Shown: positions 1-64,000 of the stretch, piece by piece
How positions within the stretch are numbered: position 1 is the stretch's first letter
How the letters are laid out: the number at the start of each line of letters is the position of its first letter
The notes under the pieces: generated by a model
Database searches by the model: none
What the model saw: only the letters and a program-made list of their open reading frames with translations
Told to the model about the DNA's origin: nothing
Position numbers and translations under genes: made by a program
DNA from: Tubulanus polymorphus
Lineage: Eukaryota; Animalia; Nemertea
Reading direction: 5' to 3'
NCBI RefSeq assembly: GCF_964204645.1
Contig: NC_134030.1
Location: 7,110,778-7,174,777, forward strand
DNA length: 64,000 nucleotides

Positions 1-610
1 TTATTGATGAAGATTTTCTAAGGTTAGTATTCTGAGGAGTTTCCGCAAATTGTATTCTGGAGGAATTCTATGTATTGTGCTTAACTTAACCTCTGACATT
101 TATTTCCAGAAATAATTACGTATACGTTTCAGTCTACTTTCGAACGCTGAGTTTGGAGACGTTGAAAAAGTCTAAAGGATATTTGTGGTTTTCGTTAATT
201 TGTAAGTAAATAGTAGTTGATTATGCAAACAGGTTCTCATAGTGTGACGTAATAATGATATGACTTAAGATGTAAAAAAGCACTTTGATACAAAATTAAA
301 TACTTAAAACTAAAGTTGAATTACGCAATTGATCAATTCATTGATTTTTTACAGATAGATAGGTCTATTGAATATTCAGTTAAAACGAACAGCCATCGTT
401 TGGCTGATTCAGAAGTAGATCTTAATGTGAACAACGAATCCTACTGTTATTACATTCGATTCTCATTCTCATATTTTAGGTGATATAGGTGGTTCTGCCG
501 GGCTTTATTTAGGCGCATCTCTATTAGCTATCGCCGAGGTCCTCTGGTTTTTCGGATCTCAACTCGTGTATCGCTTTATGCGGCTGCGACGAGTGCGCGC
601 TGGTGAATAA
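1..610 (+). CDS. DEG/ENaC channel paralog A, 3' part only (end of exon 7, exons 8-9)
   Basis: Exons <1-22, 110-201 and 480-610 with GT-AG boundaries; translate to ...DEDFLR|NNYVYVSVYFRTLSLETLKKSKGYLWFSLI|CDIGGSAGLYLGASLLAIAEVLWFFGSQLVYRFMRLRRVRAGE*, the TM2/GAS filter region, nearly identical to copy B. Confidence 0.9.
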
Positions 611-1152
611 ATATGAAAACATGGAAATACAACGATGGCTAAGAGACTCGTCTTTGGAGATTATTCATCATTGATTCATGCTAATTGTCGACCTGGAGTA
701 AAACTATTTTGTATACATCTTCGGAGATTGTTCTGTATTCATCATTGATTCATGATACAATTTACTGAGTCAGGTGCATCGCACCTCCCGTTTATTGAGC
801 TACGATTTCTTGTTAGAACACAATCTCTGAAATATCTTTGTTATCGAATTTCAAAATTTTTGCTTTAGCGTTCTACGAAATAAAAGAAAACGTTTCATAT
901 GCTTGCGTTCGTTGTAAATTTTGAATACATCTGGATCGGAAAAGTTGTTTTTCTTCTAACGAACCTATCCAGAGACGTTACCATATCCACGAGACAATTG
1001 ATGGAATTTCGCACTTTATGAAGGGCGTTAAACCAATAATAGGATACCACGGGCGATATGGATTTCACAGAAACATCCCTGGCTGCGGGTACGTCTGGGT
1101 TTCATATACGTAAGCGAACTGGCCGATAGGCCTACATTTTCTATTAAATACA

Positions 1153-1607: not shown

Positions 1608-1653
1608 TGTGCAGTCAATCACTATTTTACTATAATCATAGGCAGATTCGAAA

Positions 1654-4600
1654 ATGGCATCGGTTAAAATCGAAGACAAACAAACTTTTAAAGAAGCGCT
1701 TTCCGACTTCTCCAATGACACGGCATTTCACGGGGTTAGATACATAGGACACTCTCCAACTATCACCATCAGGTAAGCTTAGCATATCGTCATAAGATCC
1801 GCTAGAAATTATGCTATTAAGATATCACTATTTGTTATCGCAAACTGAACTTTTTATCAATTATTGTGTTTTAAAACTCGATTCCACCTTCAGAAAATGT
1901 ATCAAATTATTATCTCATTCGTATAAGTGGAAATCTACGGAAGCGTCCTGGGGACATAATTGATTTTTTTTTTCTGCTGTCTGAAAAATCATAGAATTAT
2001 ATAAAGATTCGATTTTTTATTAAATGTTATGTTTTTTTGACCGGCGTCGATTTAAATCCGACTTTTTTCACAGAATTAAATCATTTTTTATTTAATTTTA
2101 TCTTTTTCGACTGGTGGCGATTTAATCCCGACTTTTTTCACGAAACTAAATCATTTTTTATTAAATGTTATGTTTTTTCGACCGGTGTTGACTTAATTCC
2201 GATCTTTTTCACGGAGTTAAATCATTTTTTATTTAATTTATCTTTTTTTCGACTGGTGGCGATTTAATTCCGACTTTTTTCACGGAATTAAATCCTTTTT
2301 TTTAATTAAATGCTATGTTTTTTTTCGACCGGCGTCGATTTAATTCCGACTTTTTTCACGGAATTAAAGCATTTTTTTATTGAATGTTATGTTTTTTCGA
2401 CATACTGTGGAATTCCTCACAAGGCCATACGACTTACGAGTTAACGTTTTACGAATTACGAGATCAGCCGTTGGGCGTTTCAGTTCAATTTATCGCGAGA
2501 GGTCAAGGAGAAGCGAATTATGAAACTCAACAGTGGCACGTTAGACTGGTCGCCTGTCCAATTCTGCGCCACCTGCGTTCGCAGTCAGACATCTTATCTA
2601 ATGTAATCAATCTGAAGGTAGAGACCGGCAACCAGTCTATTGCCACGTGAGCTTTCAAACGAGCACTGTATGTGATGGGTGTAATTTTAGCTGAATTTTT
2701 CAACTAATTTTTTGTAACGATGATGGATGGCTCTATGCAGCCCAAACGATGTGTTTCCAAAAAATAAATACATTTCTAAATTGTTGAAAACGTTTAAAAA
2801 ACCTGTTCTAGGAATCGGGATCATGGTCAAAAAGCTCTCCGCCCCGGGGTCCTCGAAAAATGTTTAAAAAATCTTTTCCAGCTAAGATAGTCTATTGAAA
2901 TAAAGATCTTTTAGAATGTATTAGAATCATCGGGCACGTAACCGGGGCAGTGTCAGTGTGTAAATTATTGTCAACATTTTAATAGATTTTGACGGTATCG
3001 CACACCGGCTGGTCACCGCGCAGGTTTCCTGCCCTGTAGTAGCCGTAGCCGGGATTGATCTCACTATGTAAAATGAATACTTTTACAATGAATACTCTTG
3101 ATTACTATTCCGTTCGGAATTACGAAGTCCGTTCTTTGAATCACGTGCCCGTCGGATACTCTGAAGCCAATAGTGAAAAACGTGTAATTCGAAGTCGTAA
3201 TTCGTAAAACGTAACTCGTAAGACGTATGGCCCTTGAGGAATTCCATAGTATGTCGGTCGAAAAAAGTTAAATTTAAAAAAAATGATTTAATTCCGTGAA
3301 AAAAGTCCGAATTAAATCAACGCAAGTCGAAAAAAGATAAAATTAAATAAAAAATGATCTAATCCCGTGAAAAAGTCGGAATTAAATCAACGCCGGTCGA
3401 AAAAAGATAAAATTAGATAAAAAATGATTTAATTCTGTGAAAAAAACGTCGGAATTAAATCGCCGCTGGTCGAAAAAAAACATAAAATTAAATAAAAAAT
3501 GATTTAATTCGGTGAAAAAAGTCGGAATTAAACCAACGCCGATCGAAAAAAAACATGAAATTTAAATAAAAAGTCGAATTTTTATCTAATTTTATGATCT
3601 TTCAATCAGCAAAAAATAGAAAAATTAATTATGTCTGCAGGACGCTTCCGTATAAATCACATCATTTTCAATAAAATTTGAACTTGATTTTAGGCTTCCA
3701 AATACGAACATTATCAAACAATTCAACGAATAGATATAAGATCGACTTTATCACTCAGTTTTATAGATTTAACTGAAAATTATTTTCTTATGAGGGAAGT
3801 CGATTCAAATTTAATTGATTGGTAACCCAGTGCCAATAGCGACCCTGGCAGCTCATCGCTGAATCCTCGCTTGCTACTGTAGCGTTGCCGGTATCCAACT
3901 GCAAAGAACCCCAAAGAACCCATGTAGATAATTTTCAAAAAAGTAGAATTTACTACAATGGTTTGGATCAAGATAACGAAAGCTATAAGTTATGTTCATA
4001 AATTTTGAGTCTGCCTCAAGAGTGAATTTTATACATTGATATATATTTCAAATAGGGTTTGTCGCATAAATCGCTGTTTAAGCATAGACGAAACTATGTA
4101 ATTTGTATGCCAACACTATCCGAATTAATGGTGATTAAAATGTTTAGAAAGGTCCCCCAGAGACGCTGGAAATTGCGATTTGAATTTATTCCAATTGAAA
4201 CGAAATTAGCCCAATTGCAATATTAATGAATTTGTTAGAGTATAAAAACCGACACAGACATCACGTATTTAACCATGGCGATATCAATTAACTATAGGGG
4301 CGTCACAGCAGAAGGATTCGAGGTCCTAAAAGAGAAATATTCGTATATATCACCCTAAACGAGTTGTAATTTCATAATTATAGAAAAATTCGTACCAGTA
4401 TCTCAATATTGAAGATAAATTGTACTTTCTTTTCTCGTACTAAACTTTATGAAGTAGAATGATAAATTGCATGAGCGGAGACGTCTTTTTGTAGATGTAT
4501 CTGGTTGTTGTTGTTTTTGGGTATGACTGGGGCGTTTATCTACCAGGTGCACGACCGAGTCAAATATTACATTTCATGGCCGGTTACAGTGGACAACTGT

Positions 4601-7600
4601 CGAAAACAATCGAGGTCAGATACCATTCCCAGCAGTAACCATTTGTAACACTAACACTTTCAGGTATTTCAGTGAACAAGCCACATTACAAATTTTTTCT
4701 GATCAGCATTTCTTTCCGTTGAAATGGCTTATTCTACTGTTTAGATTATCTGATACTTATGAAGACGGATTGTACGAGTCAATTTCTGAATTTTACCGTC
4801 AGAACGAGAGACGAACAACGCCTAAAACTTCTCAAAATGCTTCAATTACTGGAAATGTTTCGATGGGAGACGCTTTCGAAAATATTGATATGCGGACATT
4901 GATATTGAAATATGGCCATCGTTTGAACAATACCGTGAAATCGTAAGTTAAATCGATGTAGTTTGTAAGATTATCAAGATAAATCCGCTCAATATCGATG
5001 ATAAATTTCGTGTAAATTCCTTCTAATTTCATGAGAGTGAACTTCGAATCCAAGAAATTGACAATTGCTAATCTGACAACTGTTTTGACTGACTACGGAC
5101 AATGTTTGGGGTTTAATCATGATAAAACGAAGCATCTCTACAGCCAAGGGACTGGTAAGTGATGAAAGAAATTGACGCTCATGAACGTAACTTATGTTCA
5201 GTCATTTAATGAAAGCTTTTTCTTTAGGAGCAACATATGGGTTGAACTTGTTGATCAATCTAGAACAGTACCAGAATATGCAAGGAGAACACAAATCTGC
5301 CGGACTTAAAGTTTTAGTTCATGACAAGAATCAAGGAATTCGTATGACAGATTTGTCGTTATCTGTACCACCGTCGATGAGTGCGCTTATCGATGTTCAA
5401 GCTAAAATGGTAAACATGTAGATCAGCTCGATCCTAAATATCAGTAGTTAAGTAAAACATTTCTTTTCGATATATTTGTAACTTCTCATTAACGGACGCT
5501 GAGTCCATTTAAAAGTATACTTTGGTCAGATGAAAAGTGTTTGTAATCAGTTTACCGCAAACGCGTTCGTTGCTATAGTTTTACTTTGTACCAGAATCTA
5601 AATCATTTAATTATACATCGTATGAATGATTTAGATTGAATGTGATCTAAAGCAATTTGGCTATTTGGTATAATTTCAGACGACTGAATTGAAAGATCCT
5701 TACGGAAAATGCATAAAAGACGCCCAAAGACAAAGTATGTGTCAACACCACTGTTATATACGAATGACATCAGCGATTTGTAAATGCCTGCCGTTTTATT
5801 CCGAAGATAGTCCCGCAGGTCTGCCATATTGTACTTTAAAACAGCACAGGGATTGCTACCATCTACAACTCGGTAATGAAAAATTGGAGAAGTGGTGTGC
5901 GGTTGGTCGTATTTTAAAACCCCGCACACTAGAAACAATATGTTATAACTACACGTATCAATTCAGTATAATGCCTTTTTTTCGTAGCTAAAATGCATCA
6001 AAATCAAAAAGTTTGCGGTAATGATGAATGTCCACCATCATGTCAACATCTGACGTACGATTCACGAATCAGTTACGCGGCTCTGTCGAAGAGTATGGCG
6101 AGGAAAATGGCACGAAAAGAGAAACACGACCTGAACATGTTAGCAGATTACAGAAAGGCCAGAGAAGCACTATACAATACTGACCCTCAGCTGGAGGCGA
6201 CGAGCATTGTCGCAGTTCTATCTTTCGTTGAATCACTTAAAGAATCAAAATTCGCCGTAAAAAACGCGTACGAATTTCTGCTTAATCAAACGACGATCAT
6301 TTTTGATACGCTCTCCGTCAGGGACAGTCTTCAAAACATTTCACATTCTGTACGCATGGCAAAAGAAATGTTTTTACGCCATACCAACGTGGAGGAAATC
6401 TCCACGATAGTTATTCCAGGTTTAAAACGATTTAGAACTGCACTGAATGATGCCATTGATTCAGATTTCAAAGTAATCAACAATTTCTTAGCGAACTCGT
6501 CGGTTGTATCACAAATGGATTTTCAAGCAGCGTCTTTAAACGTTGGTGGCATATTTCAAAATATGCTTTATACGGCGTTATTGACTAGGTCAGTTTTTCA
6601 GAATCTAGTTACGAACCTGGTGCAAGATAAAACTGACGCCAGGTATTTGATCGATTTGACTAAAATCACAGTTCACCACAGATTATTTCTCGAATCATGT
6701 GATAAAATTATTACTGCCTGCAATGATTCCAAAACAAAGTTGCGCGACATTAGCAACAGTCAACTAACACGGGATTGGTATGGTTTTTGTAATCTAACCG
6801 GTCAGTTTTACTCCATTATCAGCGAATTCGAAAGATCGGCGATTGATCTGAAATCCGTATTAAAAGACGGTGTTTATAAATTGGACGATTTAGAAAATTC
6901 ATTCAAAACTCACGAATCAGATTTATTCAACGCAGGTTTGAAATATTTTCTAATCATATACGCAAACATGATCAGCAAACCTTCATTCTTCAAAGCAGTT
7001 GGACGTTGGATTTTCCCGTCACCAATTAACGTAATAACTTTGAACAAAGACCTTGTTGAAATGAACAGGAATGTCATTCGACGGCTTCTTCAATCAATGA
7101 TCGTACAAAAGACGATTTCAATATCAGAATTAAATTCTCTGATGCTTGATAATAAAGACCTACTGGATAAGTTCACGCGAGATCTTCAAGTGTTCATGGA
7201 CTATTCGTTGAAAAAGATGGACATACTCAATAAAGATCTAGTTCACCTTTGCCAGGCTGCTATAGACTTCATCTTCTACTACACCACTAAGACCAATTCT
7301 ACTCTTAATATAAAACCATTGATGGAAATCAAGAAACAACTGCAGTTGATCATCCAAGAAGATGTCAAACTAACCAAAGTTATTGATGAATACCACAATG
7401 CGCAAACTAAAATGTCAGTTGTGAACTCAATCTTAAAGGATCATATGACAAAGTACCGGAATAGCATTGTTATTGATGAAGACTTTCTAAGGTTAGTATT
7501 CTGAGGAGTTTCCGCAAATTGTATTCTGGGGGAATTCTAAGAATTGTGCTTAACTTAACCTCTGACGTCTATTTTCAGGAATAATTACGTATACGTTTCG

Positions 7601-8062
7601 GTCTACTTTCGAACGCTGAGTTTAGAGACGTTGAAAAAGTCTAAAGGATATTTGTGGTTTTCGTTAATTTGTAAGTAAATGTTAGTATGCGAAAAGGTCC
7701 TCATAGTTAGTTGTAATACTGATATGACCTAATATGCAAAAAGCCCCTTTGATACAAACCAAAATTTAAAATTAAATCAATTGATCCATTCGTTGTTTTT
7801 TACAGATAGATAGGTCTTGTGAATATTTTGATAAAACGAAAAGTTAACGTTTGGCAGATTCAGAAGGAGATCTTAATAAAATGAATAGCGAATCCTACAC
7901 ATTACATTCGTTTCTCATTCTCATATTTTAGGTGATATAGGTGGCTCTGCCGGGCTTTACTTAGGGGCATCTTTATTGGCTATTGCCGAGGTCTTCTGGT
8001 TTTTCGGATCTCAACTCTTGTACCGCTTGAAGCGGCTGCGACGATTGCGCGCTAGTGAATAA
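1654..8062 (+). pseudogene. DEG/ENaC channel paralog B, frameshifted in exon 2
   Basis: Exons 1654-1772, 4495-4663, 4745-4942, 5036-5154, 5228-5409, 5680-5872, 5988-7491, 7579-7670, 7932-8062. Exon 2 is 169 nt versus 171 nt in all other copies (GACAACTGTCGAA instead of GATATATCTCTCGAA at ~4592), giving a TAA at 4646-4648. The first ATG has been deleted. All other exons are open. Confidence 0.8.
1936..3652. mobile_element. Non-autonomous foldback DNA transposon with TAC..GTA termini (IS3EU-like) in intron 1 of copy B
   Basis: TIR TACGGAAGCGTCCTG / CAGGACGCTTCCGTA; ~450-530 bp inverted arms built from ~60 bp subterminal tandem repeats (~2010-2400 and ~3258-3575) plus inner IR 2401-2461/3195-3253; flanks GAAATC/TAAATC; absent at the matching site in copy C (~10060-10075). 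Confidence 0.85.
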
Positions 8063-9017: not shown

Positions 9018-9080
9018 GGTAACCATGGCAGTAACCTCGTAAAGTATAGGGAGAGGGAGTGTGTGTGCTAGTCAATCACT
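9018..9080 (+). promoter_or_regulatory. Conserved upstream module GGTAACCATRRCAGTAAC ... AGYCAATCA (copy C instance)
   Basis: The motif recurs ~70-165 bp upstream of the start codon in all eight copies with a 5' end (1489, 9018, 28390, 35477, 42092, 49290, 55425, 58587). Regulatory function is inferred. Confidence 0.45.
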
Positions 9081-9147: not shown

Positions 9148-12100
9148 ATGGCAGATTCAAAAATGGCATCTGTTAAAATCGAAGATAAACAAACATTTAA
9201 AGAAGCGCTTTCCGACTTCTCCAATGACACGGCATTTCACGGGGTTAGATACATAGGACACTCTCCGACTATCACCATCAGGTAAGCTTAGCATATCGTC
9301 ATAAGATCGCTAGAAATTATGCCATTAAGATATTCACTATTTGTTAACGCAGGCTGAACTTTTTATCAATTATTGTGTTTTAAAACTTGTTTTAACCTTC
9401 AGAAAAATGTATCCAATTATTTTGTTAAGTGTGAATTGAGGGAAAAATTTGTATAATGAATACAGCCTTAACAAAAGAATAAATTCTACGATGTCGGTTT
9501 TCCGTCAGTTAATCGCCACCCGAGCTATGTTCCCCTTGCTACAGCGGCACCAATCATCCATACTATACTTAAAAACGCATGCCTACGGAGAAGAGCATTG
9601 CGGCCACGTGGGATTTTTTTAACTCGAAATTTCGACTTTATAAACGAGTTTTTAACACATGTGACATGTGCGCACGCTATGTTGTAAAATTCACACTATG
9701 ACACAACAAGATCAATTTTATCCTCTTCTCTTCAAGCTAGGTTTAAATAATGCCGAAATACGATACTGCCTTAGCAAGCACGATAACGTCATTCTAAGTG
9801 ACCGAACAATTACCTCAGTCGAAATTTCGAGATTAAAAGAAGAAATTTCGACTTTAAAGAAAATGTTCATGTGGCCGCAATGCTCTTCCGTAGATACCCG
9901 CACTCACCGGGAGGCACAACAAAACACCGGGAACCTTGTTATGTTTTTAAAACGTTTTTATTCTTCCCTTGATAAAATATGTGTAAATATTTGTAACCAA
10001 AATCATCTTTTCCCTCCACATACCACGGAAATGGTAGGAGATTGATAAATTATCTTATTCGTAGTGAAAATCACTTCATTTTCAAAGAACTTGATTTTCA
10101 GGCTTCCAAATACGAAAGTTGTCAAAGAATTCAACGAATGAATAAATGATCGACTTAATCACTCGGTGATGCAGATTTAACTGAAAATTGATTTACTTAT
10201 AAGGGAAGTCGAATCAAATTTAATTGATATGTAGAAAGAAGCGTGGTAGCCCAGTGCCACCAGCGATCTTGGCAGCTTATCGCTGAAGAATCCTCGCTTG
10301 CTATTGTAATGTTGCTCCACTCCCTGCAAAGAACCCATATACATATAATAATAACTTTATAATAACTTTAAAAAAAGTAGAATTTACTACAAAGATTTGG
10401 ATGCACCATCAATATAACGAAAGTAACAACTTATGTTTATTAATTTGGAGTCTGCTTCGAGAGCGAATTTTATACGTGAATATTTTAAGTATGATCCCAT
10501 TAATCCCTCGTATACGCTGTTGAGTTTATGCCGAACCTTATGTAATTTGTATGTCAACACAATCAGAATTGATGGTGATTAAAATGTTGAGAAAGGCCCC
10601 GGGGACGATGGAAATTTCGATTTGAATCTATTTCGATTGAAACAAAATTTACCCATTTGCAATATTAATGAATTTGTTAGAGTATAAACCAGACATCACG
10701 CGGTAAGCCGTAACGACACCAATTAACCGTTGGCAGGAGGGTAGGAGTCCCAAAGGAGAGATATTCTTATCTATCAATTGTATGAGTTGTCATTTCAAAA
10801 TTTCAAAATTATAGAAAAATGCGCCTTAATATTGAAGATGAATTGTACTTTTTTCTCGTACTAAACTTTGTGAAGTAGAATGATAGAGGAAATGAGCGGA
10901 GATATGTTTTGTAGATGTATTTGGTTGTTGTTGTTTTTGGGTATGACTGGAGCGTTTATCTACCAGGTGCACGACCGAGTCAAATATTACATTTCATGGC
11001 CGGTAACCGTGGATATATCTCTCGAAAACAATCGAGGTCAGATACCATTCCCGGCAGTTACCATTTGCAACACTAACACTTTCAGGTATTTTAAAAAGGC
11101 ACATTATACAATTTTCTGATCAGCTCGTCTATCCGATAAAATGGCTTATTCTATTGTTAGATTATCTGATACATACGAAGATGAGGTGTTCAAGTCTATA
11201 TTTGAGTTTTACCACCGGAATGTGAGACCAACAACGCCGACAACTTCTCAAAACGTTTCGATTATTGGAAATAATTCGATGGGAGACGCTTTCGAAAATA
11301 TTGATTTGCGGACACTGATATTGAAATATGGCCATCGTTTGAACGATACCGTGAAATCGTAAGTTAAATCGATGTAGTTTGTAAGATTATCAAAATAAAT
11401 CCGCTTAGTATCGATGATAAATTTCGTGTAAATTCCATGTCATTTCATGAGAGTGAACTTCGAATCCAAGAAATTGACAATTGCTAATCTGACAACTGTT
11501 TTGACTGACTACGGACAATGTTTGGGGTTTAATTATGATAAAACAAAGCATCTCCACAGCCAAGGGACTGGTAAGTGATGAAAGAAATTGACACTCATGA
11601 ACGTAACTCATGTTCAGTCATTTGATGAAAACTTTTTCTTTAGGAGCAGGATATGGATTGAACTTGTTGATCAATCTAGAACAGTACCAGAATATGCAAG
11701 GAGAACACAAATCTGCCGGACTTAAAATTCTAGTTCATGATAAATATCAAGGAATTCGTATGAAAGATTTGTCGTTATCTGTTCCACCGTCGATGAGTGC
11801 ATTTATCGATGTTCGAGCTAAAATGGTAAACATGTAGATCAGCTTATTGCTCGATCCTAAATATCAGTAGTTAAGTAAAACATATCTTTTTGATAGACTT
11901 GCAACTTCTTAATAACAGACACTGGATCGATTTGAAAGTACTTTTGTCAAAAAGATGTTCGTAATCAGTTAACCGTAAAAATGTCCGTTGCTATATTCTA
12001 TTCGGTCTTTTCGATCAAAAGCTATTTGTCTATTTGGTATAATTTCAGACGACTGAATTGGAAGAACCGTACGGAAAATGCATTAAAAACGCCCAAAGAC

Positions 12101-14536
12101 AAAGTATGTGTCAACACTACTGCTACATACGGGTGACGTCATCAATATGTAAATGCATGCCGTTTTATGCCGAAGAAAGTCTTGCAGGTCTGCCATATTG
12201 TACTTTAAAACAGCACAGGGATTGCTACCAAGTACAACTCGGTAATGAAAATGTAGAAGTGATGTGCGGTAGTGTCGTACTTTTAAAACCCCGCACACTA
12301 GCTACAATATGTTATAACTACATGTATCAATTCAGTATAATGCCTTCTTTTCGTAGCGAAAATGCGTCAAAACCAAAATGTTTGCGGTATTGATGAATGT
12401 CCACCACCATGTCAACAACTGACGTACGATTCACGAATCAGTTACGCGGCTCTGTCGAAGAGTATGGCGAGGAAAATGGCACGAAAAGAGAAACACGACC
12501 TGAACATGTTAGCAGATTACAGAAAGGCCAGAGAAGCACTATATATTATCGACCCGCATCTGGCAGCGATGGGCTTTGCTGCAGTTCTATCTTTCATTAA
12601 ATCGCAAGAGGAATCAAAATCCGCCGTATTAAACACGCACAAAATTATGGTTGATCAAGAAAGAATAATTTCAGATTTGATCTACGTCCAGGGCAGTCTT
12701 CAAAACATTTCGAATTCAGTACGCATTGCGAAAGAAATGTTTTTACGCCATACTAACAGCGAAGCAATCTCCACGACAGTTATTCCAGGTTTGAACACAT
12801 TTAAAACGGCCCTTACTGATACTCTTGATTTAGATTTCGAAGTTATTAACGATTTCCTAGCGAACTCGTCGGTTGCATCACAAATGGATTTTCAAGCATC
12901 GTCTTTAAAAGTTGGTGTGGTATTTCAAAATATGCTTACTACAGCGATATTGACTAGGTCAGTTTTTCAGAATCTAGTCATCAACCTGGTGCAAGATAAA
13001 ACTGTAGCGAGGTATATGATCGATTTGCCCAAAATCACACATCGCCACAGATTATTTCTCGAATCATGTGATACAATGATTACTGCCTGCCATGATTCCG
13101 AAACTAAATTACGCGTCATTCGCAACAGTCAACTAAAACGGGATTGGGACCATTTCTACAATCGAACCGGTCAGTTCTACTCCATTATCAGCGAATTCCA
13201 TAAATCAGCGATTGATCTGAAATCCGTATTAAAAGACGTTGTTTATGGATTAGACCAACTCGAGAATTCCTTTAAAACTCACAAATTAGAGATAACAAAC
13301 GCATATTTGAAGTATTTTCTAATCACATACGCAAACATCATCAGCAAACCTTCATTCTTCAAACCAGTTGGACGCTGGATTTCCCCGACACCAATTAACG
13401 TTATAACTTTGGCCGAAGACATTATCCAAATGAATGAAAATTTCACTGGATGGCTCAAAACAATGATCGCACAGAAACAGATTTCTATAGCAGAATTGAA
13501 TTCTCTGATGCTGAAAAATAAAGACCTACTGGAAAAGTTCGCGGAAGATCTTCGAGTGTTCATGGAATATTCGTTGAAAAAGATGGATGCAGTCGTTAAA
13601 GATCTAGTTCAACTTTGCCAGCCTGCTATAGACTTCTTCTACAACTACATCAGTAAGACCAATTCTACTCTCAATGTACAAGCGTTGGCGGGAATAAAGA
13701 AAAGACTGCAGTTTGCTACCCAAGACGAGGCTAAACTAAGCAAAGTCATGAATGAATTCCACAATGCGCAAAATAGAATGAGAGTTACTAACTCAGTCTT
13801 AGACGATCATATTACGAAGTACAGGAATAGCATTGTCATTAACGAAGACTTTGTAGTGTTAGTATTCATATGAGTTTCTGCAAGTTGTTCCGCGGTTATA
13901 TGTTTTACATTTAACCTCTGACATTTATTACAGGAATAATTACGTATACGTTTCTGTCTACTTTCGAACGCTGAGTTTGGAGACGTTGAAAAAGTCTAAA
14001 GGATATTTGTGGTTTTCGTTAATTTGTAAGTAAATAGTAGTTGATTATGCAAACAGGTTATCATAGTTAGATGTAATACTGATATAACTTAGAATTTATA
14101 TAGGTACCTTGATACACAAATTTTAATTCCAAAAATAAAATTGAATGAATTGATCAATACATTGGTTTTTACAGACCAATAGGCCAAGTGAATTTTGTGT
14201 TAACATGAATTGCCTATGCTAGGTGGCTTAAGCCAGATTCCAAGCAATGACTTAGATAAACTATTATTAGTGGATTGTTGAGTCCCTTGAGTATTGTAAC
14301 CGTGGACGATAAAATGAACATTTTAGTAGATTCAGAAAGAGAGTTTGAAATAAAATATATAATGAATCCGACATGTTACATTCGTTTCTCATTCTCATAT
14401 TTTAGGTGATATAGGTGGCTCTGCCGGGCTTTACTTAGGCGCATCTTTATTGGCTATTGCCGAGGTCTTCTGGTTTTTCGGATCTCAACTCGTGTACCGT
14501 TTGAGGCGGCTGCGACGAGTACACGCTGGTGAATAA
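9148..14536 (+). CDS. DEG/ENaC channel paralog C with giant knuckle insertion (~906 aa)
   Basis: Exons 9148-9281, 10915-11085, 11161-11358, 11452-11570, 11644-11825, 12049-12241, 12357-13857, 13934-14025, 14406-14536 join in frame. Motifs: TAFHGVRYI, TM1 CIWLLLFLGMTGAFIYQV, FPAVTICN, YGQCLGFN, 10-Cys thumb, CDIGGSAGLYLGAS. Confidence 0.92.
9584..9892. mobile_element. ~310 bp MITE with TAC..GTA termini (IS3EU-like) in intron 1 of copy C
   Basis: TACGG(AG)AAGAGCATTGCGGCCAC / GTGGCCGCAATGCTCTTCCGTA; internal CGAAATTTCGA repeats; flanks CATGCC/GATACC. Confidence 0.8.
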
Positions 14537-27600: not shown

Positions 27601-28282
27601 AGCAGTGGATTCCCTGTATCCATGCCAACATGCTCGGACACAATGATTATAATCGAACTGGAAATAGTAGGTTTTGGCATAACTAGAAAATATCCGGAAG
27701 GTGGATATTGTAAAAAAAGAGACTGGAAGACCGGCGAAATAAAACGATAACTTATGGCCTATAATATTAGGGGTGTATATAGATCCGCAGTTAGTAATTT
27801 CCTCCGGATGAAATGTGAAATAGGTTCTTAGGGACATTAGAAACTTTCTGATCCAGCAAAGTCATTCTTAAAACAACCTAAAAAGCTTAGAAAGTGTAAT
27901 AAACTTATACAAAAATTAATGGTAAATCTCCAGGATGGGAACTTGTGAGAATGGATTTCGGAAAAATTGTCTTAAAATGGCGTTTTGAAGGTTGTGCGAT
28001 GAAACAACTGAATAAGTTTTCATATCGATGAAAACAAGTTTTTACTGGCAAGAATTATTCAATTTGAAGTGCCGTTGGTTGACAATAGTGAATATCATTG
28101 TTTTTGTAATTCAATCATCTGATGGAAATGAAAAACGCTTACCTGATGGTGATAGTTGGAGAGTGTCCTATGTATCTAACCCCGTGAAATGCCGTGTCAT
28201 TAGAAAAGTCGGAAAGCGCTTCTTTGAAAGTTTGTTTATCTTCGGTTTTAACCGCTGCCATTTTCGAATCTGCCTTCGTCAT
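21638..28282 (-). CDS. DEG/ENaC channel paralog D with giant knuckle insertion (~953 aa)
   Basis: Exons 28282-28143, 25502-25332, 25230-25000, 24915-24797, 24709-24528, 24336-24144, 24000-22497, 22412-22321, 21867-21638, all in frame; filter reads GGS. Confidence 0.92.
26120..26204. mobile_element. 85 bp minimal MITE with TAC..GTA termini
   Basis: TACGGAGCCCCGGAGGTGACATGG / CCATGTCACCTCCGGGCTCCGTA; flanks AAATAG/ATGTAG; absent from the homologous intron-1 site of copy I (~60490-60520). Confidence 0.8.
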
Positions 28283-50846: not shown

Positions 50847-53800
50847 TCATCGGCGCACACTCATCTCGTTGAATTCATTTTGTTGTTCCTGCTTATCAGC
50901 GTGCACTCGTCGCAGCCGCTTCAAGCGGTACATCAGTTGAGATCCGAAAAACCAGATAACCTCGGCAATAGCCAATAAAGATGCGCCTAGATAAAGCCCG
51001 GCAGAGCCACCTATATCACCTAAAATACGAGAATTCAGAAACAAGATTTCGTTCTATAAGCTAACGTATCCTAATTGAAGCTATCCATCGAATAAAAATG
51101 ACGATTAATAGATTCATTCTAATTCTTTTTTTAGATTCTTTTAATGAATCCATTTTAATTCTTAGTATCTAAATCTGTATCGATGTTTTTACATTTTATG
51201 TTATATCGGTATTGTAACAAGATATTTGCACTTGTTAATCAACTTTAATGTACTTACAAATTAACGAAAACCACAAATATCCTTTAGACTTTTTCAACGT
51301 CTCCAAACTCAGCGTTCGAAAGTAAACCGAAACGTATACGTAATTATTTCTGGAAATAAAAGTCAGGGGTGAAGCGTAACGAACGGAAAAAAAATCGGAA
51401 AACGCCTTCGTAGAAAATAATCATCATCGACTTTGATTATCAAGAATACTAACGCTAAGAAGTCTTCATCAATGGCAATCCTATCCCGGTAATTTTTCAT
51501 ATAATCACCTAAGAATGAGTTCACAACTGACAATTTACTTTGTACATCGCTATAACTGTTTATGACTTTGGCAAATTCATCCTTTTCTTGTATAACGAAC
51601 TGCAGTCTCTTATTAATTTCAGTCAGTGCTTTCCCATCGACAGCTGAATTGGAGATAATGATGTAGCCGAAAAGGTCTTTGATAGGCTGGAAAACTTGTC
51701 CCATATCTTTAACAACTGCGTACAACCCTGTCAACGAATAGTCCATGAACACTTGAAGATTTCGCCTGAACCGCTCCAGTAGGTCTTTATTGTTAAGCAT
51801 CAGAGAATTCCATTCCGTCATGGAAATCGTTGGCTTTGCAATCATTGCTTCAAGCCGTCGAGTGACATTCGCGTTTATGTCGTCAACGTTTTTGCTCAAA
51901 GTTACTACATTAATTGGCATAGGGGAAATCCATCGCCCAGCTGCGTCGTAGAATGTCGGTGCATCGATGACGTTTTCGTATATGATTAGAAAATATTTCA
52001 AATATGCGTTACTTATATCTAGTTGGTGAGTTTTGAAAGTATTCTCGAACTCGTCGAATTTATAAACCATATCTTTCAGTACGGATTTCAGACCAATCGC
52101 AGACCTCTCGAATTCGCCGATAATGGTGTAAAACCGAACGGTTCGATTGTAGAAATCATCCCAATCATACTTTGATTGGCTCATGCTAATATCATGTAAC
52201 TTTGTTTTGGAATCATTGCAGGCAGTAATCATTGTATCGCATGATTCGAGAAACGATTTGTGGTTATCTTTGATTTTAGGCAAATCGACCATATACCTCG
52301 CGACAGTTTGATCTTGCACCAGGTTGATGATTAGATTCTGAAAAACTGACCGAGTCAATAACGCTGTGTCAAGCATATTTTGGAGTATCCCAGCAATCTT
52401 TAAAGACGCTACTTGAAAATCCGTTTGTGATACAACCGACGAGTTCGCTAGGAAATCGTTGATAACTTTGAAATCAGAATCGATGGTACGATCCAGTGCC
52501 AATTTGAATCTTTTCAAACCTGGAATAACTATCGTGGAAATTTCTTCCATGTTGGTATGGCGTAAAAACATTTCCTTCACCATTCGTACAGAATGTGAAA
52601 TATTTAGCAAATTTGCATCGACGTATTTCATATCCGAAGTTATTCTAACTTGATTCATCACAAACACTCCTACGTTTTTCACGGCAATTTCTAATTCTTT
52701 TATTGATTTGATGAAAAATGCAACGGCCTCAAAATTCATTTCCACCAGACGAGGGTCAGTATTGTAAAGAGCTTCTCTAGCCATTTTGTAATCTGTTAAC
52801 ATTTCTAGGTTGTTTTTCTCTTTTCGTGCCATTTTTCGTGCCATACTCTCCGAGAGAGCCGCGTAACTGATTCGTGAATCGTACGTCAAATGTTGACATT
52901 GCGGTGGACATTCATAAGTGCCGCAAACGGTCTGATTTTGTCGCATTTTCGCTAGAAAAAATAGCATTAAATTGAATTGATTGATATAGCATTAAATTGA
53001 ATTGACTGACGTATTGCCACATAACGTTGACACAACGCTAGCGTGCTGGGCTTGAGACTACACCCTCACAGCACACCACGTCTCCATTTTCATTACCGAG
53101 TTCTAGTTGGTAGCAATCTCTGTGTTGTTTTAAAGTACAATACGGCAGACCTGCGGGACTATCTTCAGCATAAAACGGCATGCATCTACATATTGATGAC
53201 GTCACCCGTATATAACAGTTATGTTCACACATACTTTGTCTTTGGGCGTATTTCATGCAGTTTCCGTACGGATCTTGCAATTCTGTCGTCTGAAATTAGA
53301 CGAAATAGACAAAATAGCTTTCGATAATAGTCTTAGTTCATTCGTACACTCGGGTGCAAAGTAAAGCTATCGCAATGAAAGTATTGAGATTAAACTGATT
53401 GCAACACATTTTTCTTCTGAAACTCTTTTGAAATGGATTTAGTGTCAGTTGAAGTCCCGAATCAATAATCGATATTTTTCGATTTTGTTTTTCTTTAGCA
53501 CTGATATTCTAAATCTAGCAAAAAACTTTTCAACACTTTTACCTTTTTAGCTTGAACATCGATAAGCGCACTCATCGACGGTGGTACAGATAACGACAAA
53601 TCTTGCATACGAATTCCTTGATATTTATCGTGAACTAAAACTTTTAGTCCGGCAGATTTGTGTTCTCCTTCCATGTTCTGATACTGTTCTAAGTTGATCA
53701 ACAAGTTCAAACCATATGCTACTCCTGTAGATACAGATATAGATATCGATATCGATATCGATAGAGAAGTAAGACTTTCCTTAATTCATCATTGGATACG

Positions 53801-55307
53801 AGGTTCATTCATTCTTACCAGTCCCTTGGCTGTAGAGAAGTTTTGTCTTGTCGTGATTGAACCCCAAGCATTTGCCGTAGTCGGTCAAAACAGTTGTCAG
53901 ATTAGCAGTTGTCAGTTTCTCGGATTGGAAATTCACTCTTTATGAAATTATATGGAATTTCACGAAATCTATCATCAGTATCAATGGATTTGTTGCTCTT
54001 AATAACTCTATCGATTTTAACTTACGATTTCACGGTATCGTTCAAACGATGGCCATATTGCAATATCAATGTCCGCATATCAATGCTTTCGAAAGCGTCT
54101 TCCATCGAAACATTTTCAGTAATCGAAATATTTCGAGTCGTTGACATATTTCCAGTTTTCGGCGTTATTGGTCTCTCGTTCTGACGGTAGAAATCAACAA
54201 TATACTTATACAACCCGTCTTCATATGTATCAGATAATCTAAACGGTAGAAAAATTAATTTTGACTGAGGAAAATTGTTTGTTGTATGTGTCCGGGTATA
54301 AATGGTATATCTAGGTATGGGCGGTGTTTCGCTGAAATACCTGAAAGTGTTGGTGTTACAGATGGTAACTGCCGGGAATGGTATCTGACCTCGATTGTTT
54401 TCGAGAGATATATCCACGGTAACCGGCCATGAAATGTAATATTTGACTCGGTCGTGCACCTGGTAGATAAACGCGCTCGTCATACTCAAAAACAACAACA
54501 ACCAAATGCATCTAAAACGCAAAAAACATATCTCCACTCATTTCCTCTATCATTCTATTTTATTAAGTTTAAGACGACAAAAAAGTAAAATAGATCTTAA
54601 TATCACGATCCGAATACATCTGTATATAATTGGAACCAGAACTCTATACATGTTAGATTAGATAGATCGACAAATAAACGCTCTTCTGGTATATCATATC
54701 ATTTTTGCTGCTATGACGTCCCTGTTATTAATAGTTGTCGCACGGTGTCACAAGGGCCAATGTGGTTTACTGGTAGATTCATTAATATTGCAATTTTGAG
54801 TTGACTTTGTTTATTAAATCGTTATTGGCACCGCCTCTGGGGATTACTTTTGATCATCATCAATTTAGAAAACGTTTATATACAAAATCACCAAGTTTCG
54901 TCGAAATACGAATAAGTGTATAGTGATTTATGAGACGGATCCTTCTCGAAATGTTCATGTGGAATATTCGTTTTCGAGCAAAACTATGAATTTAGAAACA
55001 CAATTTATTGAGTTTATCAAATAAAACAATTCGAGTAATTTCCTTATTTATATAAATACCATTATGATATATTTGAACATAATTTCCAAACAAGTTATAG
55101 AAGAATATGTACGTACATGAAAAATTGAACTAAAAAAGTGGAATTTTCTTCTAAGTGGATATGCTACGCTTACCTGATGGTGATAGTCGGAGAGTGTCCT
55201 ATGTGTCTGACTCCGTGAAATGCCGTATCATTGGAGAAGTCGGAAAGCGCTTCTTTAAATGTTTGCTTATCTTCGGTTTTTACCGATGTCTTTTTCGAAT
55301 CCGCCAT
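50847..55307 (-). CDS. DEG/ENaC channel paralog H with giant knuckle insertion (~924 aa)
   Basis: Exons 55307-55174, 54511-54341, 54238-54026, 53937-53819, 53724-53543, 53289-53097, 52951-51454, 51349-51258, 51019-50847, in frame. Confidence 0.92.
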
Positions 55308-58715: not shown

Positions 58716-61700
58716 ATGACGATGACAGATTCGAAAAAGGTAGCGATTCAAATCGAAGACAAACAAACTTTTAAAGAAGCGCTTTCCGACTTCTCCAATG
58801 ACACGGCATTTCACGGGGTTAGATACATAGGACACTCTCCAACTGTCACCATCAGGTAAGCGTACTCTATTTTTCCATGAGATGATTAAATTACAAAAAG
58901 ATCATATTCACTTTTGTCAAACAACAGTACTTCAAATTGACTAGTTCTTATGAGTAAAATCTTGTTTTCATCGATATGAAAATGTTGTTCCAATTGTTTC
59001 ATCGAACACGTTTTAAACAATTTTCCGTAATATTCCATCAAAACACATTGAAACCCCAAATTTTTCTCACGACGTGTGCCCATCTTGGAGATTTACCAGT
59101 AATGTTAGCATACTTTTATTGCATTTTCCAAGATTTTTAGGTTCTTATAAGAATCATTTTGCTGGATCAGAATATTCTTACCTTTTGATGAGTTAAATGT
59201 TCCTTGGAGCCTAACATTAGATTCTATCAAGGGGCAATTACTTACTGCGGATCTTTATTTTGATATACACCGGTTATTTACACACGGGTCATAACTCAAC
59301 TTTTTATTTCACCAGTTATCCAGCGTCTTATTTCACAGTATCCACCCTCTCGGATATTTTCTTGATTTGCCAAAAACTTACTTTTTCTAGTTCGATTCTA
59401 ATCATTGTGCCTGAATATGTTGACATGGCTACGGGAAATGAAATTCTTCCTCTTTACATTGGTATCGTAACTGTAAACATATTAAAGAACATTTTTCTTT
59501 TTGATTTGATAAAAATTTATTTTGATCTACGTATTTCATAGAATTATAGTCCTCCCCGGCTGCCGGGGTGCGTAATATCCATGATATTGCACGTATATGC
59601 ATTGTTGGGTCATAGAACTCAAAAATCATCACTTGATTTCATTTCTATTGTTGGGTAGACTCGACACGACGAGAGCTTCTCGTTAGCGAATGTGAAATGA
59701 ATAAGTCATATCTACTGTATTTTGCACCTTCATTTTCCCAACATTTTGTCATTTATTTGATTGAGTAGAACTTGATTTTTTCTACGTACATGGATTTTGA
59801 AATAGCTTTATATAAGCTTTATATACGTAGCCGTCGTAGTTACTCGTTGTCGCCTAAGATAATACGGTGGTGTAAATGAACCGTACAAACGTGACACCCA
59901 GATTATTAAGATGCTACAAGGTTCCAGGCTTCATAAGAAATAAGCACACCCGGTCGTCAGGTTGGCCAAGTGTTCAACCTCAAATTGAATGCGGTAACTT
60001 CAACCAAAATGTGGACGTGTAGCAAAATTAAGACGCTTAAACTCATGGGCCAAAACGTCGTGCTCTGGGGTATAGGTAATGTAAAGCAAAAGCAGCAATG
60101 AATTGTGTTAATAGATTTTGTGAACATAAGGATATGTCCTGCTACGTACAATTCGTCATATACATATACGAATTATGTTTGGAAACTTTTAAAGTTTTAA
60201 CAGTATTAAAAAACAACGATTATTCAAAATGGACCCTTCAGCAGAGAGCACTACCTATTCTATGCCAACTTATTGAAGCAACTTTTGAACCAGGAAAGCA
60301 CTATTTGTAAACTGAAATATTCAATAGTCGGTCTTATTAATTTGTTAATTTGGTAAGCCAATACAACAATTAATCAAAGGGGCGTTCGTGGGCACGCACT
60401 GAAATTACTAGCACGTACTTGAACGTATGATGACGACATTGATATCTTTTCAAACGGTCAAACTAATTTCAAATTTGTTGCTTCTAAATAATCATAGCAT
60501 TGCATACAATGTACGAGGTAATGCGAATCAACCATCATACAATACAAAATACAGAAAGCCGTAGAGAATGAAAGGTTGACTGATAATTAAAACCAGTACA
60601 AATGTGTTTAATGATCAAACATATGACGCTCTAAAAGTAAACAGCGGCTTTTAAAAACACATTTGCACACATTAACGACACACCAGAGACCAACGTGCAT
60701 CAAATGAATGCAATTTTTGTTTTAAAATCTGTCAAAATAGACATTTCATTACGCGCGCGCGCATGAAATACTCAGCTCTACAACATAAGTGCCAATTGAG
60801 AAGGCAATCACCTTGTTCTAATTTCTGGCTTAAAGTCACGGTATTCTTGAGCCATTAAAGGTAGTTAAGCAACTATACGCTAGTTAGTCTTTTTTTTAAT
60901 GTGGGTGATATTTCACAAAATCGAAAATTAAATTTGATATTAGTTATTACAAAAGCAAGAGGATTAGGCTCGTCGGTCTCATTTTCACAATAAGTTTACC
61001 CCGGATTATAAACTAAAGTAATCATTTATTGCAATTTAACCTCACTTATATACTCTCTGAAGTTATACTCTCTCTGAAACAACAAATAGATTTGCTGTAC
61101 ATGTTTTGAAGTTGGATAGATATTTCCTCTGTTAAAAATCCTAAGTTTAGAAATTAAGCTTTCATGCCACAAACAGAGTCGAATGCTTTTTTTCAGGTAT
61201 TTGAAGCAAGAATGTAAATTCATATCAGCTTACAGTTATTTATCGTTTATTCGTTTTAGTGTTAATAAATGATAAGTCGTGATCCACGATAAAACGAAAC
61301 GGTTTAGTGACATCTTCTGTTATATTCTAGATGTATTTGGTTGTTATTGTTTTTGGGTATGACGAGCGCGTTTATCTACCAGGTGCACGACCGAGTCAAA
61401 TATTACATTTCATGGCCGGTTACCGTGGATATATCTCTCGAAAACAATCGAGGTCACATACCATTCCCGGCAGTTACCATCTGCAACACAAACACTTTCA
61501 GGTATTTCAGTCAAGCAACATTGAGAATAAGCCAAAATAGTCTAAAGATTAAGCAGGTATTCTATTTAGGATGACTTTCCGTTCAAAAGATTTTAAGTCT
61601 AGTCTAGTCTAGTCTTATGTTTGATCTTTAGATTATCTGATGTATATAAAGACGGCTTATTCAAGTCAATCGATGGTTTCTACCGCGAGAACGTGAGACC

Positions 61701-64000
61701 AATTACACCAAAAACTGGAAATATGTTGACAAACATAAGTATGTCAATTACTCAAAACATTTCGATGACTGGAAATAATTCGATGGAAGACGCCCTAAAG
61801 AATATTGATATGCGGACACTGATATTGAAATATGGCCATCGTTTGAACGATACCGTGAAATCGTAAGTTAAATTGATGTAGTTTGAACTAACTATCTGAT
61901 GATTGTCAAATAATGATGATTACGTGTAAATTCGTTATCATTTTTCAAGCGCGAACTTCCAATCAGAGACACTGACAATGGCTAACCTGACAACTGTGTT
62001 GACTGACTACGGTCAATGCTTCGGGTTTAACCACGATACGACGAAAGACATTTACAGCCAAGGGACTGGTAAGAGTTGACAAGTTAATTATCTTGAATTT
62101 CCCTTCCTTGAATGAAACGTGTATTCAGTATAATCTAAGGAAATCTTTACTTCAATACAGGAGCGGCATATGGCTTGAACCTGTTGATCAACTTAGAACA
62201 GTACCAGGACATGGAAGGAGAACACAAATCTGCCGGACTTAAAGTTCTAGTTCACGATAAATATCAAGGGATTCGTATGAAAGATTTGTCGTTATCTGTA
62301 CCACCGTCGATGAGTGCATTTATCGATGTTCGAGCTAAAAGGGTAAATTGTAGAGCTAGAATATCTGTGTACATTAAACACTTTTATTTTCTTTTCGAAT
62401 TATCACAATTGTGAATAATCGAGGAAGGATATGCTTATAATTTCACATTAGCAATGATAAATCCCTTTCAGAATACTTTTGTTTTTAAGAAAAAAAGTGT
62501 TTAATCAGCTTCCTGTAAAGAAGTTTGTGATCTTTCCACTCAAAAAAAAATTAATTTATGTCTATTCGGTTTCATTTCAGACGACCGAATTGCAAGATCC
62601 GTACGGAATGTGCATAGAAAACGCCCAAAGACAAAGTATGTGTCAACATAACTGCTATATACGGGTGACGTCATCAATATGCAAATGCCTGCCGTTCTAT
62701 GCCGAAGATAATACCGCAGGTCTATCATATTGTACTTTAAAACAACACAGAGATTGCTACCAACTACAACTCGGTAAGGGAAATGGGCGTTCTGCATGAC
62801 AATAGCCGCTGTTCAATTATTCTGATTATTATACATAATCGTCGTTTTATTCCAAAGCGAAAATGCGTCGAAATCAAACAGTTTGCGGCACTAGTGAATG
62901 TCCACCACCTTGTCAACAACTGACGTACGATTCACGAATCAGTTATGCGGCTCTGTCGACGAGCATGGCGCAGGAAATGGCACAGAAGGAAAAAAACAAC
63001 CTGGACATGTTAGAAGATTACAAAATGGCCAGAGTAACTCTATACAATGCTGATTCACACCTCGAGGATGCGAGCTTTAATGCGGTTTTCAATTTTGTTT
63101 CGTCACTACAAAAATCTGAAATGGCTATAAAAAACGTTAGCGAATATCTGGATAATCAAGACAAAATCATCTATTCCGATAAACTCTACGTCGCAAAAAA
63201 GCTCAAAGAAATGTCAATGTCTGTTCGAGCGGAGAAAGGGAATTATTTACGCTATACCGACATGGAAAAAATCTCCACGATAGTTATTCCGGGTTTGTTA
63301 AACTTTAAAACGGCCCTTAACGAGACCCTAATTTCAGATTTCAAAGCCATAAACGATTTCCTAGCAAACTCGTCCGTTGTATCACACATGAATTTTCAAG
63401 AAGCGTTTTCAAACGTTGCTTTCGTATACAAAAATATGCTTCACACGGCCATATCGACTCGGCTAGCCTTTCAGAATTTATACGCCAATTTCAAAGAATA
63501 TACAACTTTCGTGAAGTCATTGATCGATTTTCCAATGATGATTGGTCACATTATAAAGTTTCAAAAATCATGTGACACATTGATTACTGCCTGCAATGAT
63601 TCTAAGGCAACGTTTCGCGATTTTGGCAATAGTCAATCAAGACGGGACTGGGACAATTTCTACAATCTAACCGGTCTGATTCCTGGCATCATCGATGAAT
63701 TCGAAAAGTCTGCGTTTGATCTGAAAACCAAATTGACTAATGTTGTTTATGAATTTGATGATCTTGAGAATTCATTGGAGACCTGCAAAAAAGAGCTATT
63801 CAACTTGTATTTGAAATACATTACGATCTTATATGAAAACATTATCAGCGCACCTATGAAATATGGTGCTACTAAACGGATGATTTTCCCTACACCAATT
63901 AACATAGTAACATTGATCGAAGACATTGGAAAAATAAAGGCGAATGTCACTCGACGGCTTAAAACAATGATCACGCAGAAACAGATTTCTGTGGCAGAAT
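58716..64000 (+). CDS. DEG/ENaC channel paralog I (runs off the window within exon 7)
   Basis: Exons 58716-58855, 61331-61501, 61632-61862, 61950-62068, 62161-62342, 62581-62773, 62858->64000; exon 7 appears open to the window end and is D/E/F-type (MKYGATKRMIFPTPINIV). Confidence 0.9.

What the first reader, a model, noticed from the sequence alone, without database searches (positions are those of the whole stretch)
1..64000. Tandem array of at least nine paralogs with birth-and-death dynamics, resembling a sensory or immune receptor repertoire
Seen: nine copies spaced ~6.5-7.8 kb apart with identical intron positions and phases and invariant exon sizes (171/119/182/193/92 nt, except the frameshifted exon 2 of B), in three orientation blocks (+,-,+), one pseudogene, and the array continues past both window ends. 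Established: lineage-specific DEG/ENaC expansions (Drosophila ppk, C. elegans degenerins, Hydra HyNaCs) serve sensory and peptide signalling and often form heterotrimers. Inference: co-expression could give combinatorial heterotrimer diversity.
Basis: partly seen in the sequence, partly recalled or inferred. Interest (0 to 1): 0.78.

Follow-up and report, generated by a model that had tools for sequence, protein, structure and literature searches.

The report
Sodium-channel gene array with variable towers
A ribbon worm carries nine neighbouring copies of a sodium-channel gene whose pore-forming part stays nearly the same while an unusual, roughly 450-residue outer insert, predicted to form a tall helical tower, diverges much faster, so the copies likely form a set of sensors with one kind of pore and different outer parts, although neither expression nor a stimulus is shown.

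Summary
The array is real: nine DEG/ENaC paralogs, of which six are complete and intact, one has a 2-nt frameshift and two are cut by the window ends. Intron phases are shared and proteins are 66-83% identical. One copy equals a RefSeq model of the nemertean Tubulanus polymorphus. Two unrelated genes interrupt the array; turning one block round would order the copies by descent.

The finding as written does not mention the main oddity. Every copy whose exon 7 is in the window has a ~450-residue insert between the two knuckle helices, where ASICs have about 7 residues. AlphaFold predicts a helical stalk with a four-helix bundle. Long inserts at this site occur in 44 of 138 anchored relatives (molluscs, annelids, nemerteans, a nematode); my literature searches found no description.

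The core is 87% identical (dN/dS 0.24), the insert 60% (0.58). Silent divergence between the two copy lineages is flattened in the core but not in the insert or introns, which points to gene conversion of the core. Positive selection is marginal (p=0.014). Expression, stimulus and heterotrimers are untested; nothing supports an immune role. Verdict: new variant of a known kind.

The parts
1..610 (+). copy c1: end of exon 7, exon 8 (110-201) and exon 9 (480-610); the rest lies before the window
   Evidence: 89% DNA identity to c2 over this stretch
1654..8062 (+). copy c2, 9 exons; 2-nt deletion in exon 2 (4495-4663) shifts the frame near codon 73; otherwise open; insert in exon 7 (5988-7491)
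   Evidence: one low-depth contig of DNA run X3 covers the site without the two extra bases (table 4)
9148..14536 (+). copy c3, intact, 906 aa; exon 7 at 12357-13857
21638..28282 (-). copy c4, intact, 953 aa; exon 7 at 24000-22497; same gene as RefSeq XP_074653009.1
29242..35366 (-). copy c5, intact, 922 aa; exon 7 at 31384-29881
37041..41977 (-). copy c6, intact, 930 aa; exon 7 at 39466-37963
44187..49218 (-). copy c7, intact, 931 aa; exon 7 at 46421-44924; groups with c8 by its core but lies between the two lineages by its insert
50847..55307 (-). copy c8, intact, 924 aa; exon 7 at 52951-51454
58722..64000 (+). copy c9, open to the window end, cut within exon 7 (62858 onward); closest to c4-c6
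45004..46305 (-). knuckle insert of c7 as folded: rising helix 28-95, four-helix bundle about 86-262, return helices 311-433; same position in every copy
9019..9032 (+). conserved upstream element GYAACCATRRCA, one per copy, 88-164 nt before the ATG (also at 1490, 28406, 35493, 42108, 49306, 55441, 58588); X-box-like on the other strand, a lead only
15265..19947 (-). not part of the family but interrupts the array: LicD-family ORF (15265-16263) and secretin-family 7TM ORF (17392-19947)

Best explanation
These are nine tandem DEG/ENaC channel genes of a ribbon worm with a nearly constant channel core and a fast-diverging insert of about 450 residues in the outer knuckle domain, which is predicted to form a helical tower and likely serves as the part that sets what opens each channel. 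Shown: gene structure, insert position and length, and the rate contrast between core and insert. Predicted: an ASIC-fold subunit whose insert forms a long stalk (a 68-residue helix is about 10 nm) carrying a four-helix bundle. Inferred: the array grew by tandem duplication, one inversion turned c4-c8 round, and short gene-conversion tracts keep the core exons alike while inserts and introns drift apart. Inferred, weakest step: each tower binds or is moved by a different outside cue (peptide, protein or other chemical) and passes the movement through the knuckle/finger corner to an unchanged Na+ pore, likely in ciliated sensory cells. Gating is likely not ASIC-type proton gating.
For: Insert site: P0002 aligns to ASIC1/2 up to the first knuckle helix (residue 364) and again from about 826. 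The AlphaFold model puts helices only between H354-366 and H833-839 and matches ASIC structures at E about 1e-19. Rates: core 87% identical, dN/dS 0.24; insert 60%, dN/dS 0.58 (28 pairs); M0 omega 0.26 (core before the insert) versus 0.65. Fixed amino-acid differences between lineages {c4,c5,c6} and {c2,c3,c8}: 5 in 397 core codons, 40 in 440 insert codons. Insert length is held at 440-442 aa in 7 of 7 complete copies. Polar columns vary more than hydrophobic ones (2.5 versus 1.9 residues per column, p=0.013). Conversion: the ratio of between-lineage to within-lineage fourfold divergence is 1.10 (0.93-1.33) in the core and 1.59 (1.28-2.01) in the insert, larger in the insert in 99.5% of 2000 bootstraps; short introns keep the lineages apart (75-80% within, 62-71% between). 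Core and insert trees reject each other (AU p=0.009 and 0.0004). Precedent: knuckle helix a6 lines the peptide pocket of FaNaC1 (PMC11026163, passages). HG motif present in 8 of 8 copies with exon 1; filter GAS in 7 of 8 copies with exon 9, GGS in c4.
Against: No expression or functional data at all. Positive selection is marginal: M2a versus M1a p=0.014, two sites above 0.8 posterior, my own implementation, and recombination inflates such tests. The bundle is more conserved (63%) than the stalk (49%; permutation p=0.0002), which is not what a variable binding head predicts. Fold matches are generic: no Foldseek hit at E<=0.001; VIA top hits are designed bundles, with chemoreceptor ligand-binding domains (Z 10-12) and talin/vinculin bundles (Z 10-12) tied in the range the tool calls uninformative. 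A run test for conversion tracts was not significant after correction (best 0.10). Model pTM is only 0.60. C. elegans DEL-10, whose name RefSeq lends these proteins, has no known stimulus (PMC9822975, passage).
Confidence: 0.45

Rival explanations
1. The tower is a mechanical tether or lever that links the channel to extracellular matrix or mucus, so the channels sense force and the insert varies because only its length and helicity matter.
For: Length is far better kept than sequence: 440-442 aa in the array, about 450-500 aa across molluscs, annelids and nemerteans. Talin, vinculin and catenin bundles are among the fold matches. The inserts carry 5-8 N-glycosylation sequons. A review reports that ENaC shear sensing uses glycosylated asparagines and cites a paper whose title places them in palm and knuckle (PMC10148893, passages).
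Against: The known mechanosensory degenerins (MEC-4, MEC-10) are in clade B (PMC10507113, passages), while these copies match ASICs best. One tether would not obviously need nine diverging copies. The fold matches are generic.
Confidence: 0.2
2. The towers of three subunits pack above the pore, and their variable stalks decide which paralogs co-assemble, so the diversity is an assembly code for heterotrimers.
For: Variation peaks in the stalk helices next to the channel (43-56% identity versus 63% in the bundle), and both candidate selected sites lie in the rising stalk. The knuckle a6/finger interface helps to fix ENaC subunit order (PMC7413742, passages). Near-identical cores would otherwise mix freely (inference).
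Against: No co-expression data. No structure of a trimer. Stalk variability also fits surface-exposed, unconstrained helices.
Confidence: 0.15
3. The array is largely redundant copies kept for dosage or not yet lost; the insert is an ancient spacer under relaxed constraint and the copies do the same job.
For: dN/dS below 1 in every insert pair (0.35-0.76). One of seven complete copies is already frameshifted, with a core dN/dS like the rest. A shared upstream element suggests shared regulation.
Against: Six of seven complete copies stay intact at dS 0.15-0.65. The two insert lineages differ at 40 fixed residues while their cores are homogenised. A class of sites with omega 2.4 is weakly favoured.
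Confidence: 0.2

Closest known systems
ASIC/BASIC channels (DEG/ENaC clade A; PDB 6l6p, 6ave, 9mky)
   Same: Best sequence and fold matches (E 1e-38 to 1e-29; Foldseek about 1e-19). Two membrane segments, HG motif, GAS filter, ten thumb cysteines.
   Different: About 450 extra residues in the knuckle; no His at the H73-equivalent, no Lys at K211, Arg/Gln in place of the first palm Glu; beta-ball cysteine pair lost (mapping to rat numbering partly recalled).
C. elegans DEL-10 and nematode relatives
   Same: RefSeq names c4 and four other Tubulanus proteins 'degenerin-like protein del-10'. An Auanema protein and three unnamed close relatives have a 357-367 aa gap at the same site and fall in the same broad clade.
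   Different: DEL-10 itself was not in hand, so orthology is inferred. The nematode insert shows no detectable sequence homology to the spiralian ones (hhalign probability 0.3 and 1.4%). DEL-10 has no known stimulus (PMC9822975); it gave no current different from controls in a pH screen, though a figure legend lists amiloride block (PMC10424705, passages).
Peptide-gated FaNaC/WaNaC (MGIC) and HyNaC
   Same: DEG/ENaCs gated by an outside ligand; in FaNaC1 the knuckle helix lines the pocket (PMC11026163).
   Different: FaNaC is a much weaker match (E 1e-15 to 1e-16) and is in clade B; its specificity lies in the finger. HyNaC sequences were not identified in my tree.
Drosophila pickpocket expansion
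   Same: Lineage-specific DEG/ENaC repertoire with chemosensory roles and heteromers (PMC10148893, passages).
   Different: Only weak similarity (PPK26 E 4e-7); here the diversity is concentrated in one long exon.
Constant-plus-variable gene families under mixed concerted and birth-and-death evolution (recalled: MHC, protocadherins)
   Same: Conserved part homogenised, variable part diverging.
   Different: Each copy is a whole gene with its own constant part; no shared constant exons and no immune domain found.

Membership tests
DEG/ENaC superfamily (Pfam ASC, PF00858) | ASC domain above the curated cut-off | tested here: met
   5 of 6 channel ORF pieces scanned reach the 23.6-bit cut-off (up to 68 bits); the sixth scores 22.7
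DEG/ENaC superfamily (Pfam ASC, PF00858) | Two membrane segments around a large Cys-rich ectodomain, pre-TM1 HG motif, TM2 G-x-S filter | tested here: met
   Two hydropathy peaks in 4 of 4 copies checked; motifs; ASIC fold in the P0002 model
DEG/ENaC superfamily (Pfam ASC, PF00858) | Trimeric, amiloride-sensitive, Na+-selective channel | not testable with these tools
   Needs expression and recording
ASIC (proton-gated, groups A and B) | H73, K211 and palm acidic residues (listed in PMC9949801 and PMC10507113, passages) | tested here: not met
   Val at the H73 position, no Lys at K211, Arg/Gln at the first palm Glu; second Glu kept
ASIC (proton-gated, groups A and B) | Groups with ASICs in a tree; ectodomain about 300-370 residues | tested here: not met
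   Copies fall in a nemertean clade (SH-aLRT 99.8) away from the ASIC-like rows; ectodomain about 800 residues
DEL-10-like long-knuckle clade | Insert over 300 aa between the knuckle helices | tested here: met
   Gap 453-455 in 7 of 7 complete copies versus 7 in typical ASICs
DEL-10-like long-knuckle clade | Common descent with nematode DEL-10 | tested here: inconclusive
   All rows with inserts over 300 aa form one clade at support 83 in the 49-row tree, but the nematode-nemertean node has 20 and DEL-10 itself was absent
FaNaC/WaNaC peptide-gated channels | Clade B placement with the FaNaC finger pocket | tested here: not met
   ASIC and BASIC score 106-133 bits, FaNaC 59-63 bits; pocket residues not compared
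HyNaC | Grouping with Hydra channels and their RFamide pocket | not tested
   No row of my tree was identified as a HyNaC
Sensory receptor repertoire | Expression in sensory cells with distinct stimuli per paralog | not testable with these tools
   Needs in situ or single-cell data and recordings
Immune receptor repertoire | Recognition domains (Ig, LRR, lectin) or immune-cell expression | tested here: inconclusive
   No such Pfam domain in the six channel ORF pieces; expression untested

The most novel reading that the evidence does not exclude
A widespread but undescribed branch of DEG/ENaC channels carries a modular helical sensor tower about 10 nm or more tall on the knuckle, working like a bacterial chemoreceptor's ligand-binding bundle wired to an animal sodium pore; in this worm, gene conversion holds the pore constant while the towers diversify into a receptor repertoire of ciliated sensory cells.
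Probability: 0.3. Interest if true: 0.8.

Novelty: new variant of a known kind. Interest (0 to 1): 0.52.

Why it matters
Tandem DEG/ENaC expansions are common, so the array alone is ordinary. The long knuckle insert is not: it doubles the ectodomain at a corner that other family members use for ligand binding and subunit choice, it recurs in molluscs, annelids, nemerteans and nematodes, and none of these channels has a stimulus that I could find. The array is a natural experiment, with six intact genes about 87% alike in the core and 60% alike in the insert, so insert swaps can test directly what the tower does. That could also explain the orphan C. elegans DEL-10. The mis-spliced RefSeq model shows that automated annotation can cut this exon.

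Tried and rejected
Whole genome: none held, so flanks and total copy number are unknown. Expression: no RNA holder listed. Runs X1-X3 cover introns and are DNA; X4 (RNA by guess) gave one short contig match on the LicD ORF and none on c2 at 80% likeness; this says nothing about expression. Summed contig depth cannot give copy number. Database searches returned only P0001 and P0002 and nothing among longer proteins; word-index limits apply. The ESM Atlas gave no usable hit for the insert. Foldseek found no insert match at E<=0.001. A three-copy complex job on P0002 345-660 gave no verdict. The run test for conversion was not significant. A simulation on the insert tree never gave a core ratio as low as 1.10 (0 of 150 at each of three scales), but that tree's branch lengths include amino-acid changes and overstate the contrast, so I do not rely on it. 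X-box: the upstream element is one mismatch from RYYNYY-N1-3-RRNRAC in 6 of 8 copies and two in 2 of 8; a recalled 14-mer consensus with two mismatches occurs at chance level (180 versus 177); the 8-hit pattern was drawn from the alignment itself and the copies share ancestry; an intron-3 block is as conserved (0.85 versus 0.86); PMC2375033 says an X-box alone is not predictive. Haplotype duplication rejected on divergence. Earlier scan notes: nothing near, by words or by sequence; the 8 genome notes shown of 23 concern other loci. Literature: searches (channel; species) showed no description of the insert or this array in their listings; only open-access papers are held, and the supplementary alignments of PMC9949801 and PMC9822975, which may hold such sequences, were not read.

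Full report
Observation. Six-frame ORFs and a self-comparison showed repeated DEG/ENaC-like blocks. I built exon models for nine copies, c1-c9. All introns are GT-AG with phases 2,2,2,1,0,1,2,1. Exons 2, 4, 5, 6 and 8 are 171, 119, 182, 193 and 92 nt wherever present, except exon 2 of c2 (169 nt). c3-c8 are complete and open; c2 is frameshifted near codon 73; c1 and c9 are cut by the window. Proteins are 66-83% identical. RefSeq XP_074653009.1 of Tubulanus polymorphus equals c4 at all its 779 residues but lacks 174 aa of exon 7. This names the organism and agrees with most exon boundaries. Two unrelated ORFs (LicD, 7tm_2) lie between c3 and c4.

The insert. Exon 7 (about 1.5 kb) encodes the end of the thumb, the first knuckle helix and then about 450 residues that ASICs lack. 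Paralog P0002 aligns to ASIC1/2 up to residue 364 and again from about 826. With two anchor profiles the gap is 453-455 in 7 of 7 complete copies and about 7 in ASIC-like proteins. Of 151 database proteins in hand, 138 had both anchors: 44 have gaps over 300, 14 have 100-300, 3 have 30-100 and 77 have 30 or less; 13 were dropped. I looked up 20 of them: six Tubulanus, two Lineus, two Haliotis, Ruditapes, Patella, Pecten, Owenia, Dimorphilus, the nematode Auanema (358), the hemichordate Ptychodera (201) and three unnamed. Three of the Tubulanus ones lie on a contig of the same length as c4's. Homology among inserts is weak: Tubulanus clade versus mollusc-type, hhalign 88%, E 3e-6, over the first 115 columns only; none detectable to nematodes. 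A single origin is therefore likely for spiralians and open for nematodes. In a 49-of-141-row core tree the copies, four Tubulanus paralogs and one Lineus protein form a clade (99.8); all rows with inserts over 300 aa group at 83 (same pattern in the full FastTree).

Structure. AlphaFold on P0002 gave an ASIC fold with a confident core and an all-helical insert (mean pLDDT 75, pTM 0.60). The c7 insert alone (pLDDT 79 for the best model, 62-66 for the other four) has a 68-residue rising helix, a four-helix bundle at about 86-262 and return helices. Fold matches are generic: designed bundles first (Z 13-17), then chemoreceptor ligand-binding domains and talin/vinculin bundles tied at Z 10-12. 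The shape fits a sensor head or a force-bearing rod equally well. The copies keep HG, the G-x-S filter and ten thumb cysteines, but lack the ASIC proton residues H73 and K211. They have also lost the beta-ball cysteine pair, which is missing in 11 of 50 long-insert rows (the 7 copies and P0002-P0005) and present in 39.

Evolution. Core identity is 87% with dN/dS 0.24; insert 60% with 0.58. A site model favours a 7% class at omega 2.4 in the insert only (p=0.014), which is marginal. Two lineages exist, {c4,c5,c6,c9} and {c2,c3,c8}, with c7 between. At fourfold sites the lineages differ by 0.20 in the core (0.18 within the first lineage) but 0.34 in the insert (0.22 within); short introns behave like the insert. 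Core and insert trees reject each other. The simplest reading is short-tract gene conversion in the similar core exons. A run test did not find individual tracts, and selection on silent sites is not excluded. If c4-c8 is turned round, the order becomes c1 c2 c3 c8 c7 c6 c5 c4 c9, head to tail and sorted by lineage (intron matrix), which suggests one inversion; breakpoints were not found. Within the insert the stalk varies more than the bundle (49% versus 63%).

Regulation. All 8 copies with a 5' end share a 12-nt element 88-164 nt before the ATG and a CCAAT-like block nearer to it. The first resembles an RFX X-box, which would point to ciliated cells, but no copy matches the consensus fully and the controls are not decisive. 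It is a lead only.

Mechanism. I put 0.45 on a sensor repertoire (constant pore, variable tower), 0.2 on a mechanical tether, 0.15 on an assembly code and 0.2 on redundant copies with a relaxed spacer. The first three are not exclusive. The knuckle lines the FaNaC1 peptide pocket (PMC11026163) and helps to set ENaC subunit order (PMC7413742), so a domain grafted there can plausibly affect gating or assembly. No call shows transcription, trimer formation or a stimulus.

Comparison with what is known. The genes are DEG/ENaC members closest to clade A, but not ASICs or FaNaCs. Published phylogenies note several uncharacterised lophotrochozoan groups (PMC10507113) and the unknown stimulus of DEL-10 (PMC9822975). 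In the passages I read, and in the listings of searches, the long knuckle insert is not described. I read passages only, found by search terms, of PMC10507113, PMC10424705, PMC9822975, PMC9949801, PMC10148893, PMC11026163, PMC7413742 and PMC2375033, and no supplements; subscription papers are not held. The sequences are already in public databases, so the novelty is in recognising the architecture and its pattern of change.

Verdict. Observation confirmed; interpretation partly supported. The array is an ordinary kind of expansion, but its members belong to an apparently undescribed long-knuckle variant with a constant core and a variable tower. New variant of a known kind; interest 0.52.

Noticed in passing
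window 15265-16263 (-): Single long ORF of the LicD family (E 6e-22), with a predicted N-terminal membrane anchor, inside the array.
   Followed up: partly
window 17392-19947 (-): 852-codon uninterrupted ORF for a secretin/adhesion-type 7TM receptor with a Cys-rich N-terminus (7tm_2, E 2e-26); DNA contigs with other letters at higher depth hint at an allele or paralog.
   Followed up: partly
exon 4 acceptors, e.g. 5033-5035 and 11449-11451: All 8 copies use a purine before AG (GAG in c2 and c3, AAG in c4-c9) instead of the usual YAG.
   Followed up: no
window 46529-46422 (-): Intron 6 of c7 is 108 nt, in frame and stop-free, so retention would add 36 residues to the thumb.
   Followed up: no
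window 42620-43565 (-) and 57265-57918 (-): Broken ORFs that look like the ends of LINE retroelements (recalled resemblance; no Pfam hit), in the c6-c7 and c8-c9 gaps.
   Followed up: partly
window 1936-3652 and 16723-16934: High-copy repeats: an inverted-repeat element in c2 intron 1 and a short element with very high read depth beside the LicD gene.
   Followed up: no
window 19909-20861 and 55566-55904: Local tandem duplications of about 480 nt (77%) and 170 nt (95%), near the likely ends of the inverted block.
   Followed up: no
P0075 cluster: Ptychodera flava has six clustered database members on one contig; the representative has a knuckle insert of about 200 aa and sits in a separate branch of the tree, possibly a parallel expansion.
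   Followed up: no
exon 3 of all copies: A Thr/Ser/Asn-rich finger loop varies in length (198-231 nt exon) and sequence (64% identity), a second variable patch.
   Followed up: partly
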